Part shown: positions 21,800-45,950 of the stretch, piece by piece
How positions within the stretch are numbered: the first letter of the stretch is position 1
How the letters are laid out: the number at the start of each line of letters is the position of its first letter
From: Chiloscyllium plagiosum
Lineage: Eukaryota
Direction of reading: 5' to 3'
Assembly (NCBI RefSeq): GCF_004010195.1
Contig: NC_057749.1
Location: 5,807,339 to 5,871,338 of the forward strand
DNA: 64,000 bases
Program-made: the position numbers and the translations under genes
Notes under the pieces: model-generated
Seen by the model: the letters and a program-made list of their open reading frames with translations, nothing else
Told to the model about the DNA's origin: nothing
Databases searched by the model: none

Positions 21800-22571
21800 G
21801 CCATCGATTTGAGATGCTCTCTTGTAGCCCCCTCCCAGGGACTCCCCCAAAACCTTGCCCCCTTCCCAGTTTGGGGGCCGAGGGTGAACTGTGCAGCCTG
21901 CAGGCTTCAGTCCTGGGCCAATCCCCGTTTAAAAGACAGGGGGAGGGGACACATAGAACACAGACAAAGGTGAGGGGCAGCTTCTATGGCAACCCAATAG
22001 ATCACATTCCCCTATTCAGTAAGCGTATGGGAAACGCAGAGCGCTCTCACGGCAGTTAGCAGCTTTTCTTCGCTGTTACAATGGGGTCTCTGCCGAGGGA
22101 AGGGTTCGAATCCCGCAAAGGATGAAGCCTTCTTGATTGTTATTTTTTTTTTAATTGTTGTTAAATTTCTGCTGGCTTGCCTTTTATTCTCTGCTTTCCA
22201 GTCCAAGGATTCTCCCTGGTTTATTTTTGTTTTGGAGAAGTGGGAGGACTCGCACGCCTTTCTGGGGTTTGCAGACTGCGAAGTCCTGGTGCCTTTTTGA
22301 ACCTCATGGCCGTGGTGGGCGGGTGGGCGAGGGCTCTGAAGAGGAGGGGGGGGGGTAAGCGTCCGGATTTCCAGCGCCCGTCCATACAGGGAAGGGGAGG
22401 GGGGAGGAGAGGGGGAGGTGGGTGGGGAGGGAGAAATCCTCTCTCCGCTCAGTGCATCAGGAGCTAGAGATGTGGCAGGGATCTGAGAGCCCGTGGTCGC
22501 TGTGTCTGTCTGACGGCTGAGCCATATCCACATAGCAAAGGGGGTACCGGGAGGCTCCTAGCCGAGGGGAC
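21800..22571 (+). promoter_or_regulatory. GC-rich HCN4 promoter/5'UTR region
   Basis: Repeat-free, GC- and CpG-enriched, with G-tracts at 22344-22431 directly upstream of the ATG. The TSS cannot be determined from sequence. Confidence 0.6.
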
Positions 22572-23236
22572 ATGGACAAACTGGCTCCTTCTATGCGCAA
22601 GAGACTCTACAGCCTTCCGTCGCCGACCCGGGCCAAAGCTGGGGCAGAGGACGAGGAGAAGGAGGGAGACCCAGAGGCGGCCAGGAGGGGTTTCAAAATG
22701 AGACCCCTGCCTTCTCCCTCCGGAGGGCTGACCAGGGAACCACTGGCCGGAGGGCAGGACAGCAACCTCTTGGAAACCGAGCTCGGGAGGACGGTCAAAG
22801 GCAGCAGCATCAGCAGCAGCACGAACGGGGACTGCCGCCGGTTCCGGGGCAGTCTCGCCTCGGTGACCGGCCGCACGCTCCAGGGAGCCGGGCTGGCCGA
22901 TGACAAGCGCCTGATCGTCGAGGGGGACTCCAGCCCCAGCGAGGACACCAACCCCGGCAGCGAGGGCTCCGAGGCGAGTCCCCAAGCCGAGCCGAGCTCC
23001 GAACCCGAGCCCGGGCTGGCTTTCCTGAAAGTGGACACCGCCGACCAGATCCTGCTGGAGGATGAGCTCCGGGCGAGCCAAGCCGGCTTCATGCAGAGAC
23101 AATTCGGGGCCATGCTCCAGCCGGGAGTCAACAAATTCTCGCTCCGGATGTTTGGGAGCCAGAAAGCAGTAGAGAGGGAGCAGGAGCGAGTCAAATCCGC
23201 CGGCTTCTGGATTATCCACCCTTACAGCGACTTCAG
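22572..23236 (+). CDS. HCN4: Coding exon 1 of potassium/sodium hyperpolarization-activated cyclic nucleotide-gated channel 4 (cytoplasmic N-terminus up to just before S1)
   Basis: The ORF starts [16 protein letters not shown] and contains [36 protein letters not shown] and [53 protein letters not shown], all recognisable from vertebrate HCN4. It ends at TTCAG|GTAA, a phase-2 donor at 23237, which is the conserved HCN exon-1 boundary. Codon usage is GC/CpG-rich. Confidence 0.95.
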
Positions 23237-24210
23237 GTAACCCGCTGTCTCAATGCCCTGAAATCACTTGAAAACAGAAACAAAGTTCATTGCCTTGCCT
23301 TTCAGTCAAGATAAGGCATGTCCCAATTAGATCCCACAAACAGGAGGGAGGTAAAGTTCCAAAGAATGGAGTTGGCACAAGGAGCAGATTTAAAATAGTC
23401 CTTTCTCAGTAGTGTTGAGAGTTTTATTGTATGAAAGCTGCCTTGATAAATAAAGCCAGGTATGAGGATTTGTCCAGCGGCCTGGCAAGATTGGGGATGT
23501 TTGTTTCAATATTATTTATGCAAGTTTTATTTTATGAAATGTGCAGCTTGTGAAAGTTCCTAACTCGGGAGGTACAACTCCACCCTGTTCTTTGCGGGTA
23601 AACACTTTGTTAAACTATTGGCGAACACTCAGAATTCTAACCTTTGCCAATTCGTTCTAGTCATTTTGAAAGTTTGCCTAGAATTTGGTAATGATCGCAA
23701 AATTGCATGTGTCCTTGGTTGTTTGTGTTAACGCACTTCCAACGGGGACTGTAGTTCCCATCCACGTATGCTTATATTTACGTACATTTAATGGTAATGA
23801 CCTGGTTCGTCGGTTTCATCCATCTCCCACACCAGAGATCTCCAGAGATCACCACATCTCCTCTGTGCACCAGAGTTCCCTCCTATACCCATGCAGGGGC
23901 AAAGCGACAAGCAAGGTAGCCCTGTGTAGCTGACAGAGGAGAGGTAGCTGAGAGGCTATGGTGCTCTGTAGTTAGGCAAAATCTGACACATTCCAAACTC
24001 GCCTCTGGGCATGAGAGTTTGGACAAGATCATCCAACAGCTAGTGCTGATAACGCTTCAGGCTCATATGTGTTGGAAACTGCAATGGGGTGTGGGAGGGG
24101 AAGGGGAGGCGGATGGACAAGAGGACTTTTTTAAAAAAAAAACAGTGCGTTCAGGCCAAGAGGATAGGCAGGGCGCGCTCGCCACGAGGAAAAGCGGAAT
24201 TGGTGTGGTG

Positions 24211-24231
24211 GTTGCTGTCCGTGGTGCTGAA
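24211..24231 (-). promoter_or_regulatory. RE1/NRSE (REST/NRSF binding site) in HCN4 intron 1
   Basis: The minus strand reads TTCAGCACCACGGACAGCAAC, a 19/21 match to the consensus TTCAGCACCACGGACAGCGCC. It lies within a CpG-rich patch at about 24150-24440. Confidence 0.9.
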
Positions 24232-24627
24232 CGCGGCCGTTCCCTCCATATCCCCGCGGCCTCAGTCCCCGCGGCTTTCGCCGACGCGTAGCCTCGAGAC
24301 TCAGTGCAACTTGCGCCGCGACAGAGCCATTGGAACCGAGTTCACTCCCGAAATAACGCGGATTCCCTTTGGAACTGGCGGTTTCAAGAATTGCGCTCCA
24401 CATTGTAGAGCGCCACCAGCAACCAAACCAAGTTAGCGCCCTGGAGCACTAACAAAACAGGAATTGGAGCTGGAGAGGAATCGGGGGGCACTTTAAACCT
24501 TGCGATTTGATTATCCTTATAGGTTTGAAGGTCTCTGGAAGCTTAGCATGCTAGAACCTTGAACAAGGGGGTGCCTGATACCCATGTGTGACCCATCTCT
24601 TGTAACTGTCTGTTTTAGTTGCTTACT

Positions 24628-24830
24628 GAGTTGGTTAGCTCAGTTAGTTGACTGGCTGCTATGCCGTGCAACGTAATGCTAACACTGTGGGTTCGATCCC
24701 CACTTCATAGAAGACCCCATCATTTTAACCTTGCTCCTTGCCAATGCGTGGCGACCCTTAGTTCAAACTCGCCACCATTCCAATGGTTTCTCTCAATGCT
24801 TATTGGGGTATTGTCATTTCTTGGGCGATT
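24628..24830 (+). mobile_element. Old tRNA-derived SINE
   Basis: TTAGCTCAGTT...GGGTTCGATCCC A/B boxes. Homologous to 34975-35145 (+) and 42700-42870 (-). Confidence 0.6.
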
Positions 24831-25014
24831 AACCTGTCCATGACCATAGAACCTTGCAATGATTATATGACAGCCGAGAGCACTCTTCTTCTACAAGTTG
24901 TAATGCTGAAGAGAACGTGTCACGACCACTTAGGGACCTTGCTATAGTCTTGCGTTCAGTTTGTTTGTTTTTTTGCAGGCAGGCGCATAGTGGTGATGAC
25001 AAGACTATATCTTG

Positions 25015-25212
25015 GCTGGAAATGTGTTGCTGGAAAAGCGCAGCAGGTCAGGCAGCATCCAGGGTACAGGAGAATCGACGTTTCGGGCATAAGGGCTTAT
25101 GCCCGAAACGTCGATTCTCCTGTTCCCTGGATGCTGCCTGACCTGCTGCGCTTTTCCAGCAACACATTTCCAGCTCTGATCTCCAGCATCTGCAGACCTC
25201 ACTTTCTCCTCA
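25015..25212. mobile_element. Penelope-like insertion with inverted termini (family A)
   Basis: Near-perfect inverted repeat of about 78 bp and a 14-bp TSD AAGACTATATCTTG (25001-25014 / 25213-25226). Confidence 0.88.
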
Positions 25213-25455
25213 AAGACTATATCTTGTCCCGGTGATCGGCAGGCAAGGCAAAACTAAGTAGCTATGCTTTCCAATTGTCAGCTGGACCCGAAGAGCCTAT
25301 GCTTGAGATCACTCTTATTGTCTCATACAGTCCAGACAATGGCATACCGTGTCATTCCTGGCTCACCAACCCAGTGATTGGATTGACGGGCCTCTTATAT
25401 TACCGGAAATATCGGCTCGTTTACCAACGATTCTGTCCAGCTTTCTGCTCTTTGT

Positions 25456-25722
25456 ACAGCCACAGAATCATACCGCACGGAAACAGACCCTTCGGCCCAA
25501 CTAGCCCATGCCGAACATAATCCCAAACTAAACTAGCCCCATCTGCCCGCTCCTGGCACATATCCCTCCAAACTTTTCCTATCCATGCCCTTATCCAAAT
25601 GTCTTTTAAATGCTGTAATAATGCCCACAACCACTACTTCCTCAGGAAGTTCATTCCCACACAGCGAATCACCCCCTGGGTTAAAAAAAAAGTCCCTCGT
25701 GTCCCTCTCCTTATCTCTTTTA
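25456..25722 (-). mobile_element. CR1/HER1 3' end
   Basis: WNELPEEVV..G.ITAFKRHLDK-like peptide. Confidence 0.8.
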
Positions 25723-26999
25723 TAAACTGACCAATGCATAACATACTTCCCATTTAACGTGCATTGGCGATTTAGCAGAGAGGAACACCGTCACGTTTCT
25801 GGCAAACTGGTGGTGAAAAGTTGAACAGGACAAAAACAATTTTACTTCCGTTGAGCTCTTAAAATGATCCAGTTCCCCACAGAAAACACAATGCTGTGCA
25901 TTTTTTGTGAAGATAGTTATTGTTAACTTTGTGACCATGAGTGAGCCAGCAACTTCACCTACGGAGATATTCATGGTTTCACAGCCAGCCGAGAGATATG
26001 TTTAAAGTATGTTTCTTCAAGTAGTGCTTCCTATGCATTATGTCATATGTAGGAGTAAGTCCAGTTTAAATTAAGCAATAAGCAGTCATACCTGGACTCA
26101 TGAGAGCGTCATTAACATGTTCTTACATACGTTAAAGATGAACTCATGATCAGTGAAATTTGTCTCTGCCCCACAGCTTTCTTCACATTTTACCTCACTC
26201 TATTCACGCAATTTGGTACTGGAGATGGCATCATTTAAGTCTGATTTAGCTCTACAAACACGGCTGATCGCTTCCTAAAGTTGAAACCATGCTATATGTG
26301 CAAGCGACTGACGATGCAGCCTTCAGACGTGCTGTGACAGATATCAGTGTAAAACAGACATATTGTTCTTTCAGCCACACGTTGTCCTAGCTGATTAAAC
26401 ATCAAATGTTCCGAGCAACATTGATTGTAAAGCGAGGCTGTGTTTTAATGAGTCACAGACATTTTGAGTGTGATACATTTCATCACCTCCTCTTCATGTT
26501 TAATAAACTCCAGGGTGGAGTATGTTGGAAACACCGCCGTTTCATTGATGGAAGTGAGAGGCAGTTTTGCTTCTCTCGTCCTGAACATACGAATGGGAAG
26601 GTTTCGGTAATGAGCCTAGTTTAGTTTGAAGGAAGTGAATAAAATGCAAAGCCTGTGTACACAATTCAGACTGGCACCTCATTGCTGTACCGGAGGAGTG
26701 TCACACTGCCCGCAATGCCGACTTTTCAAAGACTCGATAAAATAACACATTGTCTACTCTATAACGTGGACGCTAAACATCCCATGTCAGTTCGTGGGGG
26801 GGGGGGGGGGGGACGACTATTCGCTCACTGCATCTTAGTTACAAATCATTAAAAAACACAAGACTTTGTAGTGTGCAAATTGGCTGATGTATTTAACAGT
26901 GACAACATTCAAAAATACTTTATTGGCAACAAAAGATCTCGAGGCATCCTGAAGTTATGCAATGTAGTACATAAATGTCAATGATTTCCTTTTCTTTAC

Positions 27000-27354
27000 T
27001 GACAATAGACAATAGGTGCAGGAGTAGGCCATTCTGCCCTTCGAGCCTGCACCACCATTCATTATGATCATGGCTGATCATCCTCAATCAGTATCCTGTT
27101 CCTACCTTATCTCCATAACCCTTGATTCTACAATCCTGAGAGCTCTATCCAACTCTTTCTTAAATGAATCCAGAGACTGGGCCTCCACTGCCCTCTGGGG
27201 CAGAGCATTCCACACAGCCACCACTCTCTGGGTGAAGAAGTTTCTCCTCATCTCTGTCCTAAATGGTCGACCCCGTATTTTTAAGCTGTGTCCTCTGGTT
27301 CGGCACTCACCCATCAGTGGAAACATGTTTCCTGCCTCCAGAGTGTCCAATCCT
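27000..27354 (-). mobile_element. Young CR1 LINE 3' end
   Basis: Intact peptide TRGHSLKIRGRPFRTEMRRNFFTQRVVAVWNALP and a (GACAATA)n tail. Confidence 0.9.
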
Positions 27355-27514
27355 AGCCAGAAGGAGGGTAGCATGGAGGGTAGCGTGTAACAATTGATGA
27401 TACAACATTGACTGAAGTTCATGGTTTTATCTTGTTAATTTCAAAACATCCACACACGGACAAATCATATAAGAAATAATGTGTTTCAGGACCTAAAGGG
27501 GTCTGCGCTTTTCA

Positions 27515-28197
27515 GATAGGCTGGGAATTTTTCACCAGAGCAAAGGAGGTTGAGGGGTGATCTTACAGAGGTTTAGAAAATCATGAGCAGCATAGATAAG
27601 GTGAATAGCGATGGTCTATTCCCTAAGGTGGGGGAGTTCAAAAGTAGAGGGAATAATTTAAAACTGAGAGGAGAAAGATTTAAAAAGGATTTGAGGGGCA
27701 TCGTTTTTACACAGAGTGGTTAAGATTAGATTACCTACAGTGTGGAAACAGGCCCTTCAGCCCAATAAGTCCACACCGACCCTCCGAAGAGTAACCCACC
27801 CAGTCCCATTTCCCTCTGACTAATGCACCTAACACTATGGGCAATTCACCTGACCTGCACACCTTTGGACTGTGGGAGGAAACCCATGCAGACACAGGGA
27901 CAATGCATAAACTCACACAAACAGTCACCCAAGGCTGGAATCATACCTGGGACCCTGGTGTTGTGAGGCAGCAGTGCTAATCACTGAGCCACTATGCCAC
28001 TCCACATGTGGACTGAACTGCTAGACCAGATGCAGGTACAGTTAGAACATTAAAAAGACATTTGGATAAATACATGAAAAGAAAAGCATTGGAAGGATCA
28101 AGGCCAAGCACAGGCAGGGGGGTCGAGTTTAGTTTGGAAACATGATCGGCATTGACTAGTTGAACTGAAGGGTCTGTTTCCATGCTGTATGACTCCA
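27515..28197 (+). mobile_element. CR1 3' fragment interrupted by an HE1-like SINE (-, 27722-28000)
   Basis: LINE sequence flanks the SINE on both sides. Confidence 0.82.
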
Positions 28198-29929
28198 TAT
28201 ATATATAGCAATAGAGAAAATGTAAATGAAACAAAGGATTATTTTTGGAGGACTGCCCTTAATTGTGTTAAACTGAGCAGTAATAGAAGAGGTATTGGGA
28301 CAACAGTCTGGTCTTGTAGGTGATATGATGTGTAACAAAAAAAATTGTGATTCGGTGGTGCTGTTCTTGCCTCTGATTCGGGAGACTTAACTTCCAGTCT
28401 CACATCCTCCAGAGGCATGCAGTTACATCCCTTAATGAGTTGATTAGAATATAAAGCAATAAATTCAATGAGCAGCAAAAGAGAATGCCAAGTAACATAA
28501 AGTAATTAAAACAACATCCCTGAATATAAGAATCTGTGCTAATATGATTTTATGATATGAAAGAGTCCAGGAGCTCTTCAATCCAGTGTTGGAGTTGGTG
28601 ACCCTTTACCTGTCTCTAGCCCTGGGGAGCTCCAGGCCAGCTAAGGCATTGGAGATCAAAATGGAACACGGGTAGAATGATAAATGTAAATGCGAAATGC
28701 TAGGCTTGGAATTATTGACAGAATATTCATGCTATGGTTAGTAAATCTGATGTTGTCAGTGCTGAATTGAATAGTTTTCTTAAATAACTTGCTAAAAGTA
28801 CTTTTGTAGATAATTACAGAGTAAACTGAATGCCAAACAGTTAGTGATGGAATAGCATCAATTAACAAAACAGTGAGCAGTCCTTAGATTTAGCATGTCT
28901 TCCTAACTTTTTTTCCAAGAATAATATTTGTTAGCATCTCTATTTAGTTTATCACCAATTCTCTCCCCTTCCCTTCCTAAATGTGTCAATTGATTCCTTG
29001 CTGATGTCGTGTTCCATAGGCACTAGCCACTCTCCATTAGCACATCTAAAATAGCAACTCATATAAATAGGAAGAAAGACTTCCATCTATACCACACTTT
29101 CTTCGCACATTCAACATCTCAACATTAAAACTAATGGTGGGCTTTTTGAAAATCAGGACTGTTGCTAAATAGAAAATGCAGCAGTCAATTTGCTCTCAGT
29201 AAATTCCCAAAGATGACAATGTGATAATTACCAGGTGATCTGTTTTTTGTGATGTTGATTGAAAGATAATCATTGACCAGAACAGCAGTGTCTTGGGATC
29301 TTTTACATTCACCCAAGTGGGCAGATAGAGTCTTGGTTTAATTTTTTGATAGAGAGATAACAATCTATACAGTGTAATACTCCTACGGCAATGCTCTGGA
29401 GTGTCAGCTGTGTTTGCTTTTGCCTGGAACTCCAAGCCGCTCAGTAGGTCTTGTGATTCACAGATGACCAACTGAACCATGATTGACCTAGTAGGTGAAA
29501 TTTAATAATCTGATTTATTGGTGAATTTCAGTCATGGGTATAACAGTTAGACCCTTGCACAATATGCATAGACACCCCTGAATGAGGCTTCGAAGTGGGA
29601 GCTCTGATCAACTTCTTCAGTTGACCACAAGGTACTGGGGGCAATTATAGCAGTTGAGGTCAGTGTACCAAGGTCATTACCAAACAAAACTGTGGTGAAC
29701 TTGATTGTTGTGGTTCAGTAGCTCATTATTTCTGTTGGTGGCTGCATTTATAGAGATCATCTGATTGTGCATCTTTTTTCAAAAGTGGAAATGCACTGTC
29801 TTTTAACAAAGTGCATCTGATTCATGCAGTTTACAAAGTGTTTTCCATATCATTCTCATTTGTTTGAAAATAGTAAAGCATTCAAAAATTACTATTCCTA
29901 ATTTTCAGTTCTAAAATGCTTCAGAAGAA

Positions 29930-30115
29930 TAAAACACAGAACACAATCAGAAATTGTTGAAAAAACTCAGCAGGTCTGGTGGAGAACGGTTCTGAAGAAG
30001 GGTCGCTAGAACCGAAATGTTAATTCTGCTTTCTCTCCACAGATGCTGCCAGACCTGCTGAGATTTTCCAGCAATATCTGTTTGCATTACTGATTTTCAG
30101 CATCAGCAATTGTTT
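29930..30115 (+). mobile_element. Penelope-like inverted terminal fragment (family B) with hammerhead-like core
   Basis: CTGAAGA-A-GGGTC-GCTA-GAACC-GAAATGTTAA at 29992-30023, with inverted flanks. Confidence 0.65.
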
Positions 30116-31431
30116 GATTTTTTTCTGTATTATAAAACATATATTTACAAAATGTGAATCAATACAGATTCTACATATTCTTGTTCTCAAAAACAAGAAA
30201 GACTAGTGGATTTGATTTTTACTGCCTTCCAAACCATCATCACTGACAGTTGACAATTTCCTAAAGTGACATTCCAGAAGAAAGGAAATAAAGTTCTAAG
30301 GGATGACAACTGCACTTTTGTCCAGATTTCCAATTGTAGGTTTTCCTTTGTCAAAGGGGATCCTTTTGGCAGTGAATGTCTATCACGTCCCTCTGAAACT
30401 GGCCAGTCAGAGGCCTGCAAGAATTTCCTCGGGGAAGTCTCCCTTCTAATAGTACATCTGCAATTTGGAACTCACCCTCGCGAAACACGAGGAATGAGTC
30501 CTTTCCTTGTTAATCCAAATATAAAAATATAAACTTTGACCAGGAGAAATCAGTCCTGCAAGTTTGCAGAGAGCAATCTTCATTTTATGTCATATAGAGA
30601 CACACACAAACTCCATCAGTTGGCAATCAGCTGTTTCCTTCCATCAATGTACCCTTCATGTTTTATCTGTTCCAAGTTGCACTCTGTACTTTAAATTGAT
30701 AGTTCAGAAAGCTCTGGTGTCTTTTTAGAATACAGAGGGCAACACAGGGCCACTGTGAAATTGTGATGAACAACGTCAATTTGTTCATTTCAAACAATTG
30801 CCGACTGAGAGAAATGTCAATTATTAGAACCCAAAAGTTATTGGAATGGATGTATTATGATGGCATTTTAGTCTATTTGTAGTCTATAACCTGTGGGCGC
30901 AAGGCAATTGAGAATGTGGACCTTAGATTATAACTCGTGACACTGAATGAATAACAGACCATGAATGATAACTAATCTAATCACTGTTTTCTGTGGATGT
31001 GGAAAGTTAGATTGATGGTGTTTGGGTATAAGTAGCGTTCACATCGTATTTCCCAATGTCTAGCAGAGACATCCCTTCCTCAGCCACAGCCTGTTACTAA
31101 ACCAGTGGAAATTCATGGGGACTATAAGTACAACAAAGAAGGTATTAAAATGATATTTGAAATTTATGTAGTTCATAAACTGTTTCCCATGTCTCTAATG
31201 TTGCCCTACCCCCATATCTTTCATGGGTTACTTTGTTCTCAGTATCTCGTTTATCAGATTGATCGTTGTGATATCAAGCAGAGAGCTCTAGTGAGAATGC
31301 TGCAAGGACAATGACAGATCTTTAAGACATCTGTCCCAGTTCAAATCAGGAATTTGTCATCCTCTTGAGTCAGATAATTGCTGATTTGGTTTTTCCATGA
31401 GGCAAGCTGGGGTTCAGCAAGTGCAAGACTT

Positions 31432-31770
31432 GGGGAGGCCCAGTGGCAAGCACTGCTGCCTCACAGCACCAGGGACCTGGGTTCAATTCCAGTCTCAAGT
31501 GACTGCCTGTGTGGAGTTTGCAATGTTCTCCCTGTGTCTGCCTGGGTTTGCTTCCACAGTCCACAGATAGATGTGCAGGTTAGGTGGTTTAGCCATGTTC
31601 TAATTGCTCGTGGTTTCCAGGGATGTGCAGGCTGGGTGGATTAGTCATGGGAAATGTAGGCTTACAGGGATAAGGTAATAGGGTGGTTCTGGAAAGGATC
31701 CTTGTCAGAGGGTGGGTGTGGATTTGATGGGCTGAACGGCATGCTTCCAATCTTTAGGAGATGCTATGCC
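31432..31770 (+). mobile_element. HE1-like SINE
   Basis: Head and V-domain. Confidence 0.82.
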
Positions 31771-33754
31771 ATAAAGATAATCGGGAGAGTGTTGGAATCT
31801 CCAGTTTATAGTTGACAAGACTTCAGCAGCTGATGAACGAGTAAGGCCCAAGTTGCAGATGTGGAAACCTGACCATTTTGTAATAGAGGTGGATATAAGG
31901 TCACATGCTCATCTCAGGATTGTGTAGGACCCTAAGTTTGTGACTGAGTGATGTTTAAACTGAGACAGGCATCCAGGATGTGTGATGGAACTGGTGCTGT
32001 AGGTTCTGAGTTTGCAATAGGGAGCTGATGATAATGGCCTCAGCCTTTTCAGTGTTGAGCTGGAGAAAACTGCAATGCGGAAGAAACTACGGCAGACACC
32101 AGATTAGCAGCACGAGACCACAGAGCCAGGGCTGAGTGAGTTGGTGGAGAACTAGAATTCTGTGGTTTCTGCATTCATAAGTGATCTGATCCACCTGCAG
32201 GAGAAAACTTTCATAAGCTTTCTGATCGGTACATTTTCCTGCAGTGTTCAAATTATTTCCTATGAACTCTGTTCTACGTGCAGAACGACCTTTCTGTTCT
32301 AATAAAACACCTTGAGTCAAGAGTGGCAATTGACAAGATTCTATTCTAACAATAGGAGTTATTTGCAAATGGCGAGGGGATCTTGTTTCTTCCTTATTGA
32401 GGAGGATTTCACCTCTGTCTTACACCCTTCACAATTGCACAGGAACAGAAGTACAGTTCAGTGAATTAGCCTGTACAATTTTTAACTTAACTAAGCCATT
32501 GTGGAAATTCCATATCTATATCCAGTGTCACAACTGCCCCTATTAAGAATTCCCTTCTAAACATTCCTGACTCATGCCCATAAGAATGGAGAGTCAGGTT
32601 ATACAAATTCTTGTTTACAATAAGTTAACACAAAGATGATCAATATTTCATTTGCAATGAATGAGTTGACTTTACCTGCTACATAATTAAATTGGTTAGA
32701 GTTGAATTCTTAATCTGAAAGCTGATAGGCACTAATGCCAATAAAGCAATCTATGGTCAAAAAATATCATTGCATCAATTGTACACTTTCCTGTGAGCAA
32801 TACAACAATGTTCCTTTTGGCTTTATATATCAAAGAAAATGCATCCATATGTTTTGTTCCAAACACCTAAAGTCTTATAAACTGCCCATTGATATAATTA
32901 CAGTTGATAAAATGGACATTGAGCTGCAGCTTGACCTTTAAAATCACCTTCTACCGACCTTTAATTCTTAAATTATTAATATTATTGAATAAAAAAGAAA
33001 TATGCAACTGAGGAATAGTGGTTTTATTTGGCTCTGAAGAAAATGAGAATTCTCTGTTTGTCTTAAATCTTAAATTGCTTATGGATAAATTCAATCTCTC
33101 TGGGTGAGGCACATTTCCTTTTCACACATTCTGATGCTGAAATAAATGTTCACCTTACAATATCAAATCTACTCAAATGTCAAAAATAGGCATATTCCTG
33201 TAATGGTAATTGCATATCAAAACAAAATGTAACTTGAATCTCAATTATAAGTTAACACCCAGTTACTCTTGTTCACGATAATTTGCTTTCCTTCATCTTA
33301 TCTACCTTAACATATAGCCTTTATTTTAACTGTCCTCTATCTGAATACATTGAGGTATTCTACTAATACTAAATGCTTTCCCATTCTTTAAAAGTGTCAC
33401 AATTTTTCAGTGTTCAGTTCGTCTATTTTCCCAATTGGTTCTCTTCCTCTTCCTCTCCCAGTTATATTTTAGCAATGAGAATCATTCAAATTATTTTTCA
33501 ATATAATGAATGACAATATTTTAAATTGAAGCAGCCACTAATATACAGGATCATAAAAAGCTGTTCATACAATTTGAAACTGTCATTCTGCCTCAATATT
33601 CTGCATGCATTTATCATTTCTAAGAATTCCTCACCTTAGTAAGATAACAAAATTTACTTTTCACCTTGGAACCCTGACCTCCATGTATTATCTAGGATTA
33701 TTTTTCATATAGGGAGACTTTGATTATTTTATGTGCATAAACAAACAATTTATC

Positions 33755-34160
33755 CATTTCCAGGGTGTGGGCATCACTGGGAAGGCCAGCATTTAGTGGC
33801 CATCCCTAATTGTCTTTGAGAAGATAGTGATGAGATGCATTCTTGAATACAACTGGGCTAACAGGTCATTTCAGAATGCAACTAAATATCAATGTCATTG
33901 CTGAAGATCTGCAGTTGAATATAGGTCAGACTGTGTAAGAATGGCAGATTTCATTTCGCGAAGGAGATTAATGAACCAAATTGTTTTTTTTAACGTCAAA
34001 TCAGTAATTTCATGGTCATTAATACTAGCTTTTTATTATGGATTTATTAAATTAATTGAGTTTAAATTCCCCAGCTGCTATGGGATGTTTAAGCTTAGAT
34101 CATAAGTCCAGGTCTCTAGATTATAAGCCCAGTAACATAAACACTCTGCTACTGTGCCCC
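33755..34160 (-). mobile_element. Old SINE sharing its 3' tail with the 57890 LINE family
   Basis: Homologous to 35515-35870 (+), 43015-43322 (-) and about 17960-18300 (-). Confidence 0.6.
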
Positions 34161-35514
34161 AGTAATTTGCAGTTCATGCAGGATAACTGCACCAAGACAA
34201 ATTAAAACAAAATTTAGATGTTTACAAGTATTCCGTTTGGGACTGCATTTCCTCCATTTGCCAAGAATACTCATTCTTTAATGAACTGTCACTGAGCGGG
34301 AAGGTGCAGAAATCTCCTTCCCCAGGTGATATTAACACACTGTCTCTTGAGATTTCCTGCTCTCTACTGCAGTATCTTTGTGAATTCCCTTATATTCCTT
34401 GCTGCAATTATTCATTCACTAATGCATGTCTAAATAGAACATAGAAAAAATATTCAGCTGAAAGATGAATGTCGACAGGAGATGAATGTCGAGAACTGAC
34501 CTGAAGTGGATTCGTGTTCAGATAATCAGACCATGTATTGTACTGTGTTCAATTGTGATATAAAAATAATCCTGCAGATCTTTGCCTGGATGATGTACTT
34601 TGCAGGTCTACTAAAATTATTGAGTAGAATCTTTGTATTTTCATGCATTACATTTTACATTATGATTAAAATTGAGAGCAGAAATCATATCGATCGATAG
34701 AGGAAATAGAAAGCACATTTAATACTTGTCCTTTAGTGTCTGTCAAGAATGCAACCAAAGATTAAATGTTAGGATAGCAGTTCCCACATTGGTGAAAGGG
34801 TACTGATCAACTGACTGGGGTGCATTTACAATTTGGACCTTCCTTCCAGTTATCTCCCTGTGGTTTGTCTGACTTTAGTTTTCATAGGCAGAGCAACTTT
34901 CTTATGATCCTTTACTGACTATATGTTTGGAGTAGCATCTGTCATTTAGCACATTGCTCCTATTCAACTCAAGGTAGCTGATTAGCTCATTCAGCTGGAT
35001 TGCTAGCTTGTAGTGTAGGGTAATGCTAAGAATGTAGGTTCCATTCGCACACTGGCTGCGATCCTGTTAACGAATTCTTTTTCTTTCCTCTTGCCAAAGG
35101 CAAGTTGATCCTCAGGTTAAGCCACCACCATCTCTTTCTAATAAATGAGGTGTTACATTTTATTTAACCTGATCAATCATTGTGTATCACTCACCGGACA
35201 ACACACGAAGGGTACTCACATAATCCTTCCATCTCTTTTTAACACAAAATAAGCCTCACATGAACAATGCACACAGGTAACATCAATCTGCTAAAGCCTT
35301 TCAGTTAGTGCAGTAGGAAGCAAAGACAAACAACTTATCAACTGAGCACCTACAGCAAATTGAATTGGCTTCTAAGCAAGCAGAGCAAGGGCATCGAAGG
35401 TTTTTGTGTTTCTTTTAGGAAAGCCTGTTCATTATAATGGTGATCAGAGCAAGAGATGTTGTCCATAATTTCTATTTACACTCTGGTATCACACAAAACC
35501 ATGAGAATAGGAGG

Positions 35515-35870
35515 GTGGCATGGTGGTGACATCACTGGACTAGGAATCCAGATGTGCTCAGGATATGAGTGTCAATCCCACTGCATCTCGTGAAACTTAA
35601 AAATAACTCATAAATCTGGATTTGAAAACTAGTATCAGTAATGATGACCATTTCAATATTAATTGATTATGGTTAAAAAAAAATCTGCATCGGGTTCACT
35701 GATGTCCTCTAGAGAAGGAAATTTGTCATCCTTAGCTGGTTTGACACATGTGACTCCAGACCCATAGCAACCCGATTGAGAATTAGCTTTCTGGAATGGC
35801 TCAGCAAGCCATTCAGGTCAAGGACAATTAGGCATGGATGATAGTTGCTGGCCTTTCCAGCAACAATCTC
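35515..35870 (+). mobile_element. Old tRNA-derived SINE
   Basis: GGTGGCATGGTGGT..CACTGGACTAG.AATCCAG head. Related heads occur near 6305, 14085 and 36265. Confidence 0.6.
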
Positions 35871-36419
35871 ATCCTCGGGATATTTCATTAGGACCCCCTC
35901 CCCACCCTGCAAGACCAGTATGCCAAGTTCCTGCTCAGGAAGCCCCCACCCCATTTTCACACCTGCTAGAAAGGCAGGTATCTGAACCTGTAGAGAGCTG
36001 AGGCCCACAATAGCTGCTAATTGACCATAGAAGGACCTAAATGGCTGACAAGCTGAGAAGGCTCGTAATAAACATTCTTATGCAGTACTTAATGACTGAT
36101 CTAGCAAGAAGACATCAACTGTGTATTCTCCAGGAGCAACCCACTTAATTATTTTCCATTCTCGCAGGATAACTGCACCACCGGAAAGGGGAAAATAGCG
36201 CCAATGGTCTTTATATGAATGTAAAATTCTTACCAAGCAATATACTTTAAAAGAATGAGGGGGTGATGGTGGTATAGTGGTAAAGTCTTTGGATAGTAAT
36301 CCAGAGCCTCAGCCTAATGTTCTGGGCTCATGAGCTCAAATTGCATCATGGGAGAAAAGGTATTGGGTCAGTCTCTATCACAAGAAGCAGAGTATATGAC
36401 AAACAGTTGGGACTGAAGA

Positions 36420-37510
36420 CAAGCTAGTCACCAGGAACCTGATAGACTGCATCCAAGGAATTTAAAGGAAGTGGTTTCGGAGGTAGTGGAGACATTGGTT
36501 GAAATTTTCCAGAACTCGTTGAATTTTGAGAGGGTTGTAGTGGAATTGAAAATTGTTAAAGTTCCTGATTTAAGAAGAGAGAGAAACAAAAAGTAGGAAA
36601 CTAGGCAGTTAGTGTAACATCTGTTGTTGGGAAAATCTGTTGAGGACATAAAAAAATGTCAACGGATATAGTTAGGTTGAGTGAGTAGGCAAGAAATCTG
36701 GGCGATGGAGTTTAACATTTGAAAATGCAAGGTCTTTCACATTGATAGGAAGAATCAAATGATAAGCTGCTATTTAAATGAGAAGAGACTCCAAAAACAT
36801 GCAGTGCCGAGGGACCTGGGTGTTGTGTATGAAACACAAACAGTTAGCATGCAAGTGCAGCAAGTAATTGTGAAGGTAAATTGAATTTTGGCTTTATTGC
36901 CCGGGGTTGGAATGTAAAATTAGAGAAGTTTTGTTTCAACAGTGCACGGTGTTGGTGAGGCCATGCCTGGAGTCATGTGTACAGCTTTGTCCCTGTATTT
37001 AAGAAAGTATAGTCAGGATTTGGAGAACTTCAAAAGTGATCAATTGAACTGATTCCTCTATTGAAGAGGTTGACTTTTCAAGAATGGCTAAACAGGTTAG
37101 ACCTTCATTAATTTGAATGAAGAAGAATGCGAGGTAAGGATATTGAAACAAATGAATTTTCAGGGGACTTGACTGCGTAAATGTTGAGAAGAAGTTGCCA
37201 TTAGTTGGGGTGGGGCAGAAGTCTTTGAACCAGGGGACATAGTTACAGAATAAGGGGACAATAATTTAAAACTGGGATATGAAGAAATTTCTTCTCCCAG
37301 AGAGCAGTGAATCGCTGGAATTTTTTACCCCAGAGAATGGTGGAGGCTAAATAATTGTAAATATGTAAAAAGGAGGTAGATTTTAAAAACAGTTGAGGAC
37401 TAAGGGGTATGAAGACCTGGTATAAAAATGGAGTTGAGGCCTGTGCTGATCAGAAATCATCTTATTGATTGATGGCATTGGGTTGAAGGGACAAAAGTCG
37501 TACTGCTGCA
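36420..37510 (+). mobile_element. Old degenerate CR1 LINE
   Basis: SPGTD.LHPRNLKEV..EVVETLVEIFQNS-like coding remnant and a CR1 3' end. Confidence 0.75.
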
Positions 37511-39984
37511 GGATAAAAGTGATCTCAGCATTAGTAGTCCAGCAAAGCAATATTGTTTGAGAGCTTTTTATAACTTCTAACTTGCAGTAGGCCTTAACAC
37601 CGCTGGAAATGAAGACTACATTTACCTCACCTCAGAGTTACATTTTCATTTAGACAAAATGAGTTAGCTAGCTGTGAAGTAGACAACATGAGATTGGCAT
37701 GCAGCCACAGGACAAAGAGTTCCTAACACAAAGACTGAAATCATGTTTGAAAAAATGTCAGGTCTGCTTTATCCATCTAAAATCACAAAGAACTAAAGGC
37801 GAAAAAGGATCAGTGGAAAATACAATTTTTGATAAAATTGCTTCTGAACACTTTCCTTGTGCCACTTTTGAAGTAAAATTTTAAACAACATAATGTTGCC
37901 AAAAAGAATGGAAACTTTAAGAAAAATTCATTTGGAATTTTGCAGTTCAAATATTCTGGCAACAGGAAATAAACAGAAAAAGATGTATTGTCCTGTTCTG
38001 AAGCAGAGTCATACTGAATATGAAATGTTAACCCTGTTTCTCTCTCCACAAATGCTGCCAATTCTACTTAGATTTTCCAGAAATTTATGCTTTTATTTAA
38101 TATTTATTATCTGCTAGATTTTGGAACCTACAGCTTAAGCTGCAACATTCCAGTTCAAAGTGGAAATGAGTATAACTCCCTACATGTAATTTTCTTTGGG
38201 ACACGATAACATGAAGCAGCACCTCTAAAGGAACTATAACAGCATGTAAGAGCAAAATCAGCTGATTTGCCAGTTGCACAGAAAGTTGCACTTGCCACTA
38301 AGCAGTAATGACAGCTTTCAGCACTTGCTGAGTCACAGAGAAAGGTGTAAATGAGTATGGCACAGTCTTGAGCAGATTTGGATGCTAATATGAACAGATT
38401 ACAAATTGTCGCGTGGTAGTAGAGAACTTGAACATTGCTGAGAAATGAGACACGCTGCTGACCCTTTTAATCCTGCAGTTGTGAGGACAGGCAAAGAATA
38501 CCAGATTTCAAAGGGAGAAGTGATTTATATTGCATTGAAAAAGGGGACAAATTGGTTGGCATGTTGAATCTGATTGATTATATGAACATATGCTCATACT
38601 CAGGAACCAGTCCTCTGCAGGAAATAGGGACATGCTTGGGTATTGTGTCTTTCCTGAATTAAACAAGAACCATGGGTGATACTAGTTAACAACTGAAAGA
38701 ATTGCGGATGCTATAAATCAGAAACAAAAATTGAAATTGCTGGAAATGATCTGCACATCTGGCAGCATTGTGAAGAGAAATCAGAGTTAATGTTTCAGAT
38801 CGAGTGACATTTCCTCAGAACAGATAGTGGTTCCTTGGTGCATTTTCCATGACAACTCCTTGACCAATCACAGTCAACTTGCCAACCAAAAGCACCCTTT
38901 TCTCAAGCAGTAGAAATTGTTGCTTCCTTTGCAATTTGGCATTTTTGCACCTGCCCTGATGAGCGCAAGATGAAACGCTTCAATAAATTTAAAAATGGAT
39001 GCTGCCACTTAATGAATTATCTTCTTGTTATCGCATTGTGGATTGTCAGAACTCGCTGCATGCAAGTTGACTCCCTCACTTTCTGTGTTATGATAATGCA
39101 CATACTTTATCAAACATTGCACTGGTTGTAAGGTCCTTCAGAATTTCCTGAGATTGTGAAAGGCTCTGTGCAGATGTGCCCCTTTTCCATAATTGTAATT
39201 GCCCTGCTCAAGGGCTGACTGCATTTGTTTTGCAATTGTCAGTCCATCGTGCATGCACATACTGTGCTCAGCAATCAGTCTTGCTTGGTGTCAGATTCAG
39301 ATTGGATTTTGCTATTTTTGCTCTCATTGACACAAACTTGTGAATTGCATCTATTCATATCTTCATTCATTTAGTTTTATTTCTAGGAAACTGTAATGAT
39401 ACCAACCCAAATATAGACTCATCAAAAGACACAAGAAGGAAAGGAAACTGTAAATTCTGGCATTCTGAAACAAAATGAAATTTTGGAAATACACCCAGGA
39501 TAGCTAACATCTAAGAGGAGATGAAGTTTTAACAGTATTATGAATAGGGCTATTTATCAGAGCAAAATTCTAGTGAATAAGGGGACAAAAGTACCACTTG
39601 TTTTCAGTCATATGAAAAAACATAATGCCTTTTGCATATACTTTTTAACTGGATTGCAGCAAACCTGTCTATGGCTTTATGAACAAAGATCAGTCGATAT
39701 GAATCATAAACCCAGAGGAATCCCTTAGTCATGAGTGTCTTTGACTGACTCTGCATATTCACCAATCTCTCATTATTACAGGATCAGCTTGCATCAGTTT
39801 GACAATTTCTATGTATAAGATCGCCAATATTTCCAGATAAAATCAGTGTGTCTGGTTAATGTTTTCAGTGCTCAAACAAACTGAATTATTTTTCCCAGTC
39901 CACAGTAGGATATAATTCCATTATGTGAACTGAGATTCACCCAAAAGTTCACTTGATTAATGCTTTAGTCATGCATTCCATTTA

Positions 39985-40620
39985 ATACGGAATATGTTGT
40001 ACTTATAGGGGGTGTGCTATATTTACAGTTTGGTGTGCTGTATTTACAGGGGCTATACACTATTTCCAGTAAGATATGCTGTATTTACAGGGATTATGCT
40101 GTATTCATGATAGGATATTCTATATTTACAGGGGCTGTGCTATTTTCACAGTGTGATATGTGTATTTACAGGGATTCTGCTGTATTCACAGTGATATAGG
40201 CTTTATAGGGGCTATGCTGTATTCACAGTAGGATATGCTGCATTTACAGGAGCAATGCTGTATTCACAGTAGGATATGCTGTATATACATGGGCTATGCT
40301 ATTTTCACAGTAGGATATTCTGTATTTATAGGGGCTATGCTATTTTCACTGTGTGATACGTGTATTTACAGGAATTCTGCTTGTATTCACAGTGATATAT
40401 GCTTTATTTTCCGGGCCAAGCTGTATTCATAGTGGGATATGATGCATGTACAGGGCTATGCTGTATTTACAGGCGGAGCTGTTTTGTTTACAAATAGAGA
40501 TGCTGCATTTCCAGAGGTTTTGCTGTTTTCACAGGAGGCAATGCTGAATTGGAGGAGAGGCTGTATTTTGCCAGCTGTGCAGTAACTTTTGCTGGGTGGT
40601 ATGCATTGTGCTGTATTTTG
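39985..40620. repeat. Degenerate ~20-bp minisatellite (GCTGTATTTACAGGG/ATTCACAGTAGGATAT) with a higher-order period
   Basis: Recurrent ATGCTGTATT(T/C)ACAG units. Confidence 0.9.
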
Positions 40621-41269
40621 CCCCTTTATGTGTGTGTGTGGGGAGGGGTGGGGGGGATGGTGGGGGTGGTATTTTTGTGTTAGTACTGAGACCCAAACAG
40701 GTGCCAAAATTTGAAAGGAGGGAAATGAAGTTGAAAGATCATATGGAACAATGTTGGGTATGAGTGGGTGGTTGGCATACCACCAGAATCACCCCCCCCC
40801 CCCCCCTTGGGTTCAATGGAGGAAGACGGACAGCAACCATAAAAAAGTAACAAGGCTGACTCCATGTATCAGTGATAGACCCGCCCATACTACCCTCAAC
40901 AACTTTCTCCCCTCTATCCTTCATCAAGTGGGCCCTAGCATACACATCTCCCTCTTCCAAGCATTCACCTGCACCTTTCCTCTCTCCCTGTCCCACAGTT
41001 AATACCAGCATCTTATCATATACCACTAGTTCAGAGTCACTTTGTTCCTTCTTGCTCTTTCCAGATGTCAAATGGTCCCCACTTTTCCATCCATCACCAC
41101 CCCATCCTCATTTCATCTTTATTTCCCCTCACTACAAACTATAATGTCTGACCCATTCCCCCCTCAGTTTAGCTGCCCAAGGAAGGCTCACACTGGACAG
41201 GAGTCAGAATGTTAACTTTAGCTCTGGGTGAAAGCACTAAATGGGCAAAATTATCTCCACATTGCAATG

Positions 41270-41650
41270 AAAGGCTTGCATTTATATAGCACCTTTCATG
41301 ACCACAGGGTATCCCAAAGGTCCACATGGCCAATGAAGCCCTTTTCAAGTGTGAACACTGTGACGATTGTAGGAAATACAGCAGCCAACCTTGTGCACAG
41401 CAAGATCCCACAAACAACAATGGGATACTGCTTTAGTAATCTGTATTTTGTGATGTGGGATAACCATTGACCAGGACACTGCAAATAACTCCCCTGCTTT
41501 TGTTCGGATGAGATTTCACGGGTCCTTGACCAGAGAGGGCACATGTGACCACTGCTTTTGACCATTGTCAAAAAGATGCTATCTCCACCAGTACAGCATA
41601 CCTTCAGCACTGCATTGCATTGGAGTGTCAGCCTGCACAGTGAAGTTCCC
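41270..41650 (-). mobile_element. Ancient SINE with an L2-type tail (...GTGCTATATAAATGCAAG)
   Basis: Similar relics occur at about 29075-29480 and 61750-62070 (-), and 26660-26990 and 39050-39180 (+). Confidence 0.55.
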
Positions 41651-41989
41651 AAGTCTCACCTACTGCACTGGAAGATAAAGCACCAGCCCAACATCTTAGA
41701 ACATACTGAGTTCTCAGCACAGTGGTATGTTGTTAAAAGCAAACTCTTTCAGGTGGACATTGAAGGTTGTATGACACTGTTTGCAGAAAAGCAGCAAGTT
41801 CAGCCGACGTGCTAGCAAGCAAGACACCCTGAACAGCAAGAAATCATCCTGTACATCATTCAGTGGCACCATGCTGTGTAAAACAAAAAGGTTCCCTGTG
41901 CATTTTATTTAACAGCTGTCATCCTATACTTCATTGCGTATTAAGTGCTTTTGGAACCTTTGCAGAAATTCAATGAATAAATGCAAATT

Positions 41990-42175
41990 TAAAAATCACA
42001 CAACACCAGGTTATCGTCCAACAGGTGTAATTGGGAGCACTAGCTTTCAGAGCGCCACTCCTTCATTGCCACGTTCCGAAAGCTAGTGCTTCCAATTAAA
42101 CCTGCTGGATTATAACCTGGTGTCGTGTCATTTTTAACTTTGTACACTCCAGTCCAACACCGGCATTTCCAAATC
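41990..42175. mobile_element. Penelope-like inverted-repeat insertion (family C)
   Basis: Inverted arms of about 70 bp, a 13-bp TSD ATAAATGCAAATT (41977-41989 / 42176-42188) and CCGAAAGCTAGTG hammerhead half-motifs. Confidence 0.75.
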
Positions 42176-43329
42176 ATAAATGCAAATTGTTCTTCACATT
42201 TATCGCATTTAAATGAAACAGCGACATGTTCAGCTCTCATTTGTCAGTGTGAGTGTCACACTTTATTGTGAGGGACTTGGTCTCACAAAACCTGCTTTTT
42301 GGTGGGTTTCCCAGAATTGTGAGCCTTAAATCCTGATTTTTACCTTTCTGTCTCTGAACGTGGTTTCATAAATGGTGGGAAAATGACTGCCACTTGCTTG
42401 CCTGGTCAATGGCTTTATGCTTATCTCTGCAAAACAGTTTATAGCTCCCCTCCCTTGCTTCAAACCACCAACTAGCAAACTCCACAGAGAGGAAGCTGGG
42501 CAAATTATGAATTGAGTTGTGGGTGTAAAACTAGTGGAGGTGAATTGGCTGGTTGTTTTTCTTCCCAAGCTCCTTTCCCTATCTCTCTCTGTTGGAGCTG
42601 CAAATATACACTGCCTACTTCTGTTCCACACGGAAATCAGGGCTCTATTTCTTCACCCTTTCTTCTGATCTTTGAAACAGTAAAATCATCATGGATGACT
42701 CTCTCATTAGAGAGACAACTGGTGATAGTTTTAATCTGAGGGTCATCATACCTCAGGCAAAGTGAAAGGTTGAGAAGGAGGGACCTTTATGGTAACTTCA
42801 GCTGGTGCAAGAATTAAATGAGTCCTATTAGCTTCAAACTGTGTCACAAACAAACAAAGCTAACTGAATCCCAGAAACAGGCAGATGTCTTGGATACCTA
42901 TTGCCAGTGTCAATCAGGATCTGAGGACAGTTAGTCCTTTAATACTTTCTTCCAGGTATGGATAGTTAAAAAAACTTCAACTCTTGTGTATGTTGGTGCA
43001 ATGTGAATGGATTTTTTAAAAATTCATTTACAAAGTGTGGGCATTTATTGCCCAGAGGGCAGTTATGAGTCAACCACATTGCTGTGGGTTAGGAACCACA
43101 TGTAGGGCAGAACGGGTAAGGATGGCAGCTTCCTTCTCTGAAGGACATAGTCAACCAGATGGATTTTTCCACCGTGGTAATGGTCATCATTGATTCCAAA
43201 TATTTATTGGATTCAAATTCCACCATCTACTCTGGCAGGATTTGAACCTGGGTTGCTAGAACATTACCTTGGGTTTCAGGAGTAATAACTCAGTAATGAT
43301 TCCACTAGGCTATTGCCTCCCCGTAAATG

Positions 43330-44150
43330 GCTTTGTTTTAGAATTGGTAGATGAGTGGTATGATTACAGCTCTTGTTGAAGAGTTTGGTGGAATAGACAG
43401 AAAGAAACAGTTTCCTTGTGTGGAGGAGTTGAGAAGAAGGGGACATAAACAAAAAAAAAAGATTAAGCCAGATGAAAAGAAATCCTTCTTCAAACAGTGT
43501 ATTGTGAAAATTTGGAACTTTCTACTCCTAAAAGCTGTTAAGGTTGAAGGATAATTGAAAATGTTAAAATTGAGATTGGCAGATTTTTGTTGGGTGAGGG
43601 TACTAAGGACTACAGAACACAAGAAGCTGAAGTCAGAGTAGACTGTTCAGTCCCTCAAGCCTGCCCCACCATTTGATAAGTTTATGGCTGTAATCTCAAC
43701 TCTACTTTCCCGCCTGCCTCCTGTATCTCCTGAATCCCTTGTTGATCTGAAATCCATCTTGCTAAACCTTGAATATATTCAATGACCTGCTACTCTCTGG
43801 GAAAGAAAATTCCTCAGGCTAACAACTCCATGAGAGAAGAAGAAAGCAGGAATTATCAGCAGTGCTTTGCCCGGAGGCCTACTGAAAACATTACCGGGTA
43901 AGGTGATGAAACGTCTGGAAGTGAACCTTCCAGCTCAGCTAGCAAACCTATATCCAGAAGAAATTTCCTCCTCATCTCCCTTTAACATTTAAACTGTTCT
44001 AGATATCCCTGGAAGGGAAAACTTCCTTCCAGCGTCCACCCTGTCTCGCCCTCAACTGCAGTTAGTCATTGAGTTCAGAAACAGATCAGCTATGGTCTAA
44101 TTGAATGCCAGAACAGGTTTGAGGGGCTGAATGGTATTCTCCTGTTCCTA
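43330..44150. mobile_element. Nested CR1 3' ends (+ and -) with an inserted Penelope-like fragment (about 43840-43960)
   Basis: CR1 tails in both orientations. The insert contains ...GGTGATGAAACGTCTG and is flanked by AGAAGAA repeats. Confidence 0.6.
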
Positions 44151-45280: not shown

Positions 45281-45405
45281 GATGTGGAGGTGCCGGTGTC
45301 GGACTGGGGTGAACAAAGTCAGAAGTCACACAACACCAGGTTATAACTCAACAGGTTTATTTGAAATCACAAGCTTTTGGCGCACTGCCCCTTCATCAGG
45401 TGAAG
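45281..45405 (-). mobile_element. Penelope-like terminal fragment (family C)
   Basis: The minus strand reads CAC-CTGATGA-AGGGGCAGTGCGCC-AAAAGCTT-GTG. Confidence 0.7.
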
Positions 45406-45950
45406 AGGCAAAAAGAAGCCAAGAGAAGGTGGGTTTACCTTCAACCTCTTTCTAACTATTCCTAATCTTTCCTTTGTAATGTGTATTTAACAACCAGGTG
45501 ACCACTCTAGCGGAAGATAATAAATGTTGTATTACTGGCTTTTAACACAAGCCTACTAAACACTGACAGGGAAACAAAATGAAGGGTTCTTTAATGGAGG
45601 ATAGCAGCAGCCCAGGAGACTGTGCTACTATCACTGTTCCACCTACTATTGCACTTGTTAACTTACATCACTTTACATAAAGGTAGTTCTAATATAATGT
45701 GATGGTTGCATTCTTATGCATTATAGAAAAATCACGCTTTAGATACAGCATTTAAAGTCTGGGGGTGGTAATCGCTTTACAGCCAATACATGTTTTTAAA
45801 GTTTGCGCTTTAGAAACAGTGTCCCCACTTCATCAAACACGTTACACCGAATTCACATTAACGAAACAGGCGTAATAGCAGAATGACCTGTGTTTAGCAG
45901 TTTGTCAATCAAGTTAATCTACATGCAATTCAAGACGATATCAGACCAAG

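What the first reader, a model, noticed from the sequence alone, without database searches (positions are those of the whole stretch)
24211..24231. Near-consensus RE1/NRSE in HCN4 intron 1: REST control of the pacemaker channel may predate the shark-bony vertebrate split
Seen in sequence: TTCAGCACCACGGACAGCAAC (minus strand) about 975 bp after the exon-1 donor, in a CpG-rich, repeat-free patch. Established: mammalian HCN4 is repressed by REST/NRSF through an NRSE in intron 1. Inference: this is the orthologous element, conserved across jawed vertebrates.
Basis: partly seen in the sequence, partly recalled or inferred. Interest (0 to 1): 0.7.

Follow-up and report, generated by a model that had tools for sequence, protein, structure and literature searches.

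The report
REST silencer in shark HCN4 intron
A shark pacemaker-channel gene (HCN4) carries a strong docking site for the neuronal-gene repressor REST, but it sits near the gene's start, as in the sister genes HCN1-3, not far downstream as in rodent HCN4, so it may be an old family feature that mammalian HCN4 replaced.

Summary
The motif is real: TTCAGCACCACGGACAGCAAC on the minus strand at 24211-24231, 975 nt after the exon-1 donor of a carpet-shark HCN4, in the densest CpG patch of the intron. It is the window's only consensus RE1. The identical 21-mer at two unrelated mouse loci scores 0.97 and shows REST enrichment, so it very probably binds REST. The claim that it is the orthologue of the mammalian HCN4 NRSE is not supported. 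The rat Hcn4 intron-1 REST peak lies 18.6 kb from the start site, the mouse site differs in linker and tail, and a bird HCN4 has no RE1 in the first 6 kb of intron 1. The shark position instead matches the paralogues: rat Hcn1/2/3 peaks lie in intron 1 at 1.7, 1.4 and 0.7 kb; frog hcn1/hcn2 and one HCN1-type locus have similarly placed antisense sites. Best reading: a functional promoter-proximal REST site, probably inherited from the ancestral vertebrate HCN gene and lost or displaced in amniote HCN4. Independent gain remains a serious rival: flanks do not align, and orientation and tail matches are common by chance. No other shark could be tested. A 24/25 shark-teleost promoter match upstream of exon 1 was noticed.

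The parts
24211..24231 (-). RE1/NRSE, canonical two-half-site form with 2-nt linker, antisense to HCN4
   Evidence: identical 21-mer enriched for REST at two mouse loci
24137..24436 (.). Small CpG-rich patch containing the RE1 (29 CpG in 300 nt, o/e 1.12), separated from the exon-1 CpG island by a CpG-poorer stretch
22572..23236 (+). Coding part of HCN4 exon 1 (222 codons, phase-2 junction in the Arg codon of YSDFR)
23237..64000 (+). HCN4 intron 1 (GT donor at 23237); exon 2 is not in the window, so the intron is longer than 40.7 kb
21980..22004 (+). Conserved upstream element, 24/25 identical to a teleost hcn4 locus at the same distance from the ATG (592 vs 576 nt); X-box-like half-site next to a CCAAT pentamer (motif names recalled)

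Best explanation
The 21-mer is a functional REST binding site. REST bound about 2 kb from the HCN4 promoter would recruit Sin3/HDAC and CoREST complexes and damp HCN4 in cells with high REST (non-neuronal cells, working myocardium), leaving it free in neurons and other low-REST cells. It is not the direct counterpart of the distal mammalian HCN4 NRSE. It occupies the proximal intron-1 slot seen in HCN1, HCN2 and HCN3, most likely because the ancestral vertebrate HCN gene had a site there; shark HCN4 kept it, and amniote HCN4 lost it and uses a site ~18 kb downstream. Shown: motif, gene identity, position, paralogue positions, absence in a bird. Inferred: REST binding in shark (about 0.9), repression, common descent with the paralogue sites (about 0.5), turnover rather than displacement.
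For: Exact, unique motif. Same 21-mer at two mouse loci, PWM 0.9719 against a 0.91 cut-off, with enrichment values 1.3-3.3 in three cell types. CpG retention around it fits the hypomethylation reported at conserved REST sites (abstract). Rat peaks in intron 1 at 1682 (Hcn1), 1415 (Hcn2), 718 (Hcn3) but 18,635 (Hcn4) nt from the TSS; mouse Hcn2 and Hcn3 sites 922 and 427 nt from the nearest exon, first intron; frog hcn1 and hcn2 sites 1804 and 2024 nt from the gene start, antisense; locus L009 (HCN1-type) has an antisense RE1 1225 nt after the same donor. Only 8 of the first 192 rat peaks lie in an intron 1 within 2 kb of a TSS. Bird HCN4 L001: no site and no CpG patch in 5,998 nt. Site turnover with conserved targets is the reported norm between frog and human.
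Against: No flank homology: shark and L009 introns share only the 19-nt motif; shark and bird introns share nothing. Antisense orientation is common (19 of 30 intragenic frog rows, 6 of 8 non-HCN proximal rows). The 20/21 match to mouse Hcn3 is weak evidence: 4 of 40 mouse sites with this core share the CAA tail. Half of rat intron-1 peaks seen (8 of 16) are proximal, and proximal sites repress best, so selection could produce this placement repeatedly. L007 (HCN3-type, 932 nt) and L008 (divergent HCN, 5,998 nt) have no site. One shark only; REST in sharks not tested.
Confidence: 0.5

Rival explanations
1. One reading: shark and mammalian HCN4 sites descend from one element, which in amniotes was pushed ~17 kb from exon 1 by insertions.
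For: One strong site in intron 1 of HCN4 in each lineage; absence from the first 6 kb in a bird is also what displacement predicts; 17-nt cores differ only in the linker. Compatible with a pre-duplication origin too.
Against: 0.98 kb after the donor in a >40.7 kb intron versus 18.6 kb from the TSS; mouse tail TGTC versus shark CAAC; no NRSE listed for frog hcn4; RE1 positions are mostly not kept between frog and human.
Confidence: 0.22
2. Independent gain: the site arose in the shark (or carpet-shark) lineage, by point change or transposon, and lies near exon 1 because proximal sites repress best.
For: No alignable flanks with any other locus; proximal intron-1 sites are common among intron-1 peaks (8 of 16); potency falls within 2-3 kb of the TSS; many RE1s are young or transposon-borne; two HCN loci with enough intron lack it.
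Against: All three other paralogues have a site in the same slot in rat, two in frog; no repeat signature within the window and no Pfam transposon domain in the two overlapping ORFs; a strong CpG patch suggests long residence (inference).
Confidence: 0.25
3. Chance match without function, inside a CpG-rich element that does something else (enhancer or antisense promoter).
For: No binding, chromatin or conservation data for any shark were obtained; G+C-rich patches raise the odds of G+C-rich motifs.
Against: Expected exact cores about 6e-5 per 64 kb under base composition; 0 of 100 shuffles; lies in a gene whose whole family is REST-bound in rat.
Confidence: 0.03

Closest known systems
Mammalian HCN4 intron-1 NRSE (Kuwahara 2003, Kuratomi 2007, as summarised in PMC9405064; REST peaks in PMC5103073, PMC4499139, PMC2573930 supplements)
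   Same: Same gene, same intron, canonical RE1 core, single strong site.
   Different: About 18.6 kb from the rat TSS versus about 1.6 kb from the shark ATG; linker AT and tail TGTC in mouse versus AC and CAAC; orientation not seen. I could not read the two primary papers, so equating their NRSE with the 18.6 kb peak is inference.
Proximal intron-1 RE1s of HCN1, HCN2 and HCN3 (rat, mouse, human; frog hcn1/hcn2)
   Same: Intron 1, 0.4-1.2 kb after exon 1 where measured; antisense in frog hcn1, frog hcn2 and L009; mouse Hcn3 site is 20/21 identical.
   Different: Different paralogues; no flank homology shown; sequence identity at this level also occurs at unrelated loci.
RE1/NRSE class of REST binding sites (PMC1557810, PMC4430910)
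   Same: Matches the degenerate consensus exactly; PWM score of the identical 21-mer 0.97.
   Different: In a cartilaginous fish, a lineage not covered by the tables I saw.

Membership tests
Canonical RE1/NRSE | Match to the consensus with two half-sites and a 2-nt linker | tested here: met
   Exact match to NTYAGMRCCNNRGMSAG, only one in the window
Canonical RE1/NRSE | PWM score above the 0.91 cut-off | tested here: met
   Identical 21-mer scored 0.9719 in the mouse table; score read from the table, not recomputed
Canonical RE1/NRSE | Bound by REST at this locus in vivo and represses the gene | not testable with these tools
   Only indirect: same 21-mer enriched at two mouse loci
Canonical RE1/NRSE | REST protein present in the organism | not tested
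   No genome held; REST in teleosts and frogs is in print; in sharks recalled only
HCN4 orthologue | HCN4-specific N-terminus alignable over the whole of exon 1 | tested here: met
   Rabbit HCN4 1-263 aligns to 1-222 (184 bits); HCN1 94 bits and HCN3 67 bits over the last ~54 residues only. Database names of shark relatives are inconsistent (HCN1-, 3-, 4-like)
HCN4 orthologue | Synteny (NEO1, NPTN neighbourhood) | not tested
   No neighbouring gene was identified in the window
Orthologue of the mammalian HCN4 NRSE | Same position within intron 1 | tested here: not met
   975 nt after donor versus 18,635 nt from TSS in rat; none in 5,998 nt of bird intron
Orthologue of the mammalian HCN4 NRSE | Alignable flanks | not testable with these tools
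   Mammalian flanks not available; bird locus ends 6 kb into the intron
Proximal intron-1 RE1 shared by HCN paralogues | Within ~1.5 kb of the exon-1 donor, antisense | tested here: met
   orientation known only for frog hcn1/hcn2, L009 and the window
Proximal intron-1 RE1 shared by HCN paralogues | Common descent (flank homology or continuous presence on the tree) | tested here: inconclusive
   Only the motif aligns with L009; 2 further loci with over 900 nt of intron besides the bird lack it

The most novel reading that the evidence does not exclude
One RE1 sat about 1 kb into intron 1 of the single HCN gene before the vertebrate genome duplications and was passed to all four paralogues. Sharks keep it in HCN4; on the way to amniotes HCN4 alone lost it and gained a distal site, which loosened promoter-proximal silencing of the isoform that serves the heart's pacemaker outside the nervous system.
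Probability: 0.3. Interest if true: 0.6.

Novelty: new member of a known kind. Interest (0 to 1): 0.36.

Why it matters
REST sites in HCN genes are known, so one more in a shark is modest news. Its position is the useful part. If it is the ancestral family site, it dates a REST-target link to before the HCN duplications and gives a clear case of site turnover in the pacemaker-channel gene, with a testable prediction: shark HCN4 should be more tightly REST-repressed than mammalian HCN4, because repression is reported to fall off within 2-3 kb of the start site. A handful of public shark, chimaera, gar and lamprey genomes would settle it.

Tried and rejected
Own genome: not held, so no genome-wide RE1 count, REST gene search, repeat check or look at other shark HCN genes. 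Sequencing runs for 22300-24700 with a long-read filter: none was listed; this is no evidence, and it left conservation in other sharks untested. Extending L001, L008, L009: records not held. Five of nine metagenome loci (L002-L006, 85-605 nt of intron) were too short to test the proximal slot. Loose-gap local alignments of introns and promoters were uninformative (8 and 18 of 100 shuffles reached the observed scores); replaced by an ungapped test. Sequence identity between RE1s as a sign of descent (shark vs mouse Hcn3 20/21; L009 vs mouse Hcn2 21/21) was rejected: the same words occur at unrelated mouse loci. Shared antisense orientation was downgraded. ORFs over the site have no Pfam match above cut-off. 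Rfam: nothing in the window. Earlier scan findings: none. Primary papers PMID 17173866, PMC291842 and 10.1093/molbev/msp058 not held. Search for human HCN4 exon coordinates found nothing. A protein alignment failed on a frame slip and was not needed.

Full report
Observation. The reverse complement of 24211-24231 is TTCAGCACCACGGACAGCAAC. It is the single match to the 17-nt RE1 core in the window, with no mismatch; 0 of 100 dinucleotide shuffles give an exact match and 18 of 100 give one at up to two mismatches. With the degenerate consensus printed in PMC4430910 (passage) it is again the only exact hit; two more appear at one mismatch. It differs at 2 of 21 positions from a recalled full consensus. 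The donor GT is at 23237, so the site starts 975 nt into the intron and 1639 nt from the ATG. The 300-nt tile 24137-24436 holds 29 CpG (o/e 1.12), the highest of 135 intron tiles; the next has 13 and the median is 3. No window-internal repeat lies between 23237 and 25014.

The gene. The frame 22572-23237 aligns over its whole length to rabbit HCN4 1-263 (184 bits), including the N-terminal blocks that HCN1 and HCN3 lack; those align only over the last ~54 residues. The best of 1743 longer relatives are from Chiloscyllium (96%) and Rhincodon (91%), then other elasmobranchs at 57-66%, so the window is from a carpet shark; database names for these proteins are inconsistent. tblastn with four full-length relatives finds no later HCN exon in the window, so intron 1 exceeds 40.7 kb. 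Synteny was not tested.

Would it bind REST? In the 1166-site mouse table of PMC2573930 (supplement rows seen) the identical 21-mer stands at two unrelated loci, score 0.9719, with values of 3.27/2.94/2.05 and 1.94/1.49/1.33 in the E14, NS5 and NIH3T3 columns (I read these as enrichment ratios, the sub-heads were not shown). The cut-off of that matrix is 0.91 (PMC1557810 passages). Conserved REST sites are reported as hypomethylated (PMC4499139 abstract), which fits the CpG patch; that link is inference. That sharks have REST is recalled, not tested.

Is it the mammalian HCN4 element? A review (PMC9405064, passages) states that HCN4 has a conserved NRSE-like sequence in intron 1 that represses the promoter in rat myocytes, without a position; the primary papers were not held. 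ChIP tables give the position. In rat neural stem cells (PMC5103073, supplement file 12; file 13 not searched) Hcn4 has two peaks: intron 1 at 18,635 nt from the TSS and one 35 kb upstream. In human and mouse ES cells (PMC4499139, supplement file 3; file 1 not searched) one of three human and one of two mouse HCN4 peaks is marked conserved and it is the strongest; from recalled gene coordinates it lies about 20 kb inside intron 1. The mouse site, found at mm8 chr9:58639995, 32.8 kb from the Neo1 3' end and labelled AF064874 (recalled as Hcn4 mRNA), reads TTCAGCACCATGGACAGTGTC and is bound in ES and neural stem cells. A scan of metagenomes for host DNA returned 9 HCN exon-1 loci. L001 is a bird HCN4 (97% to bird proteins); its 5,998 nt of intron 1 hold no RE1 at six mismatches of 21, no paired half-sites, no CpG patch and no similarity to the shark intron. 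The frog table of PMC4430910 lists hcn1 and hcn2 but no hcn4, neo1, nptn or loxl1; gaps or missing annotation in that assembly could explain this. So the positional test of orthology fails.

What it does match. The same rat table puts Hcn1, Hcn2 and Hcn3 peaks in intron 1 at 1682, 1415 and 718 nt from the TSS. Mouse Hcn2 and Hcn3 sites are 922 and 427 nt from the nearer exon of the first intron. Frog hcn1 and hcn2 sites are 1804 and 2024 nt from the gene start, antisense. L009, closest to HCN1 among solved structures on 30 residues (no HCN2 in that list; taxon not established), has an antisense RE1 1225 nt after the homologous donor. Of the four loci with over 900 nt of intron, one has a site (L009) and three do not (L001, L007 HCN3-type with 932 nt, L008 divergent with 5,998 nt); five loci were too short.

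Controls on that pattern, counted by hand. Among the first 192 rat peaks, 16 lie in an intron 1 and 8 of them within 2 kb of a TSS (30 of 352 text places seen), so three of four paralogues in that slot is well above the 4% base rate, but half of all intron-1 peaks are proximal. Among the first 30 of 196 intragenic frog rows, 9 lie within 2.5 kb of the gene start and 19 are antisense, as are 6 of the 8 proximal non-HCN rows: orientation carries little weight. The shark site is 20/21 identical to mouse Hcn3 and L009 is 21/21 identical to mouse Hcn2, but 4 of 40 mouse sites with the shark's core share its CAA tail and the Hcn2 word recurs at an unrelated locus: identity is not descent. Shark and L009 introns share only the motif. 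PMC2573930 reports that repression is strongest near the TSS and drops within 2-3 kb (passages), which both predicts strong repression here and offers a route to convergence.

Mechanism and odds. REST most likely binds this site (about 0.9, inferred) and, through Sin3/HDAC and CoREST (established; passage in PMC3902484), lowers HCN4 transcription where REST is high. For its history I give 0.5 to retention of an ancestral proximal site with turnover in amniote HCN4, 0.25 to independent gain, 0.22 to orthology with a displaced mammalian site, 0.03 to chance. The cardiac framing is untested in sharks; in trout HCN4a is among the main cardiac isoforms and HCN transcripts peak in the sinoatrial node (PMC7895799 passages).

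Novelty. RE1s in HCN introns are known. Searches for HCN4+NRSE+intron (2 papers), RE1+REST+HCN4+conserved+zebrafish (4), HCN1+NRSE+first intron+conserved (1), HCN4+HCN1+REST+ChIP-seq+RE1 (3) and HCN+NRSE+paralog+duplication (0) showed no shark site and no paralogue-wide account in listings and the passages read; the library lacks most subscription papers, including the REST network evolution paper I asked for, which may cover it. Verdict: new member of a known kind, interest 0.36.

By-product. A teleost hcn4 locus (L002, 98% to percomorph proteins) matches window 21980-22004 at 24 of 25 bases, 576 versus 592 nt before the ATG; the best 25-mer in 30 shuffles reached 17-20, and 8 of 9 loci lack the word, none of which is an HCN4 locus reaching that far upstream (L001 holds 248 nt upstream). 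This is the one non-coding element shown here to be shared by shark and bony-fish HCN4.

Noticed in passing
window 21980-22004; L002:2304-2328: 24/25 identical element about 580-590 nt upstream of the HCN4 ATG in shark and teleost; resembles an RFX X-box half-site abutting a CCAAT pentamer (names recalled). Likely core promoter element conserved across jawed vertebrates.
   Followed up: partly
L009:1318-1338: Antisense RE1 1.2 kb into intron 1 of an HCN1-type gene, identical in all 21 letters to the mouse Hcn2 site; the same word also occurs at an unrelated mouse locus.
   Followed up: yes
window 25015-25174: 160-nt near-perfect palindrome (156 of 160) belonging to a family with copies near 5.7, 9.9, 12.5, 17.8, 19.8, 46.0 and 47.0 kb; looks like a fold-back or MITE-type repeat.
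   Followed up: no
window 39974-40554: Tandem array with a 41-nt period, about 13 diverged copies.
   Followed up: no
window 1750-1796 and 20115-20680: Assembly gaps (runs of N); the larger lies 1.9 kb upstream of the HCN4 ATG.
   Followed up: no
window 6400-6615, 18650-18865, 53709-53924 and others: Abundant ~200-nt SINE-like repeat family on both strands, plus LINE-like ORF fragments at 1020-1619 and 55983-56483 (class recalled).
   Followed up: no
protein hits P0002-P0008: Shark HCN4 orthologues are named HCN1-like or HCN3-like in several database records although their N-termini are HCN4-type.
   Followed up: no
L002:2928: An RE1-like word with one base missing lies in the coding start of teleost hcn4; probably a codon coincidence.
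   Followed up: no
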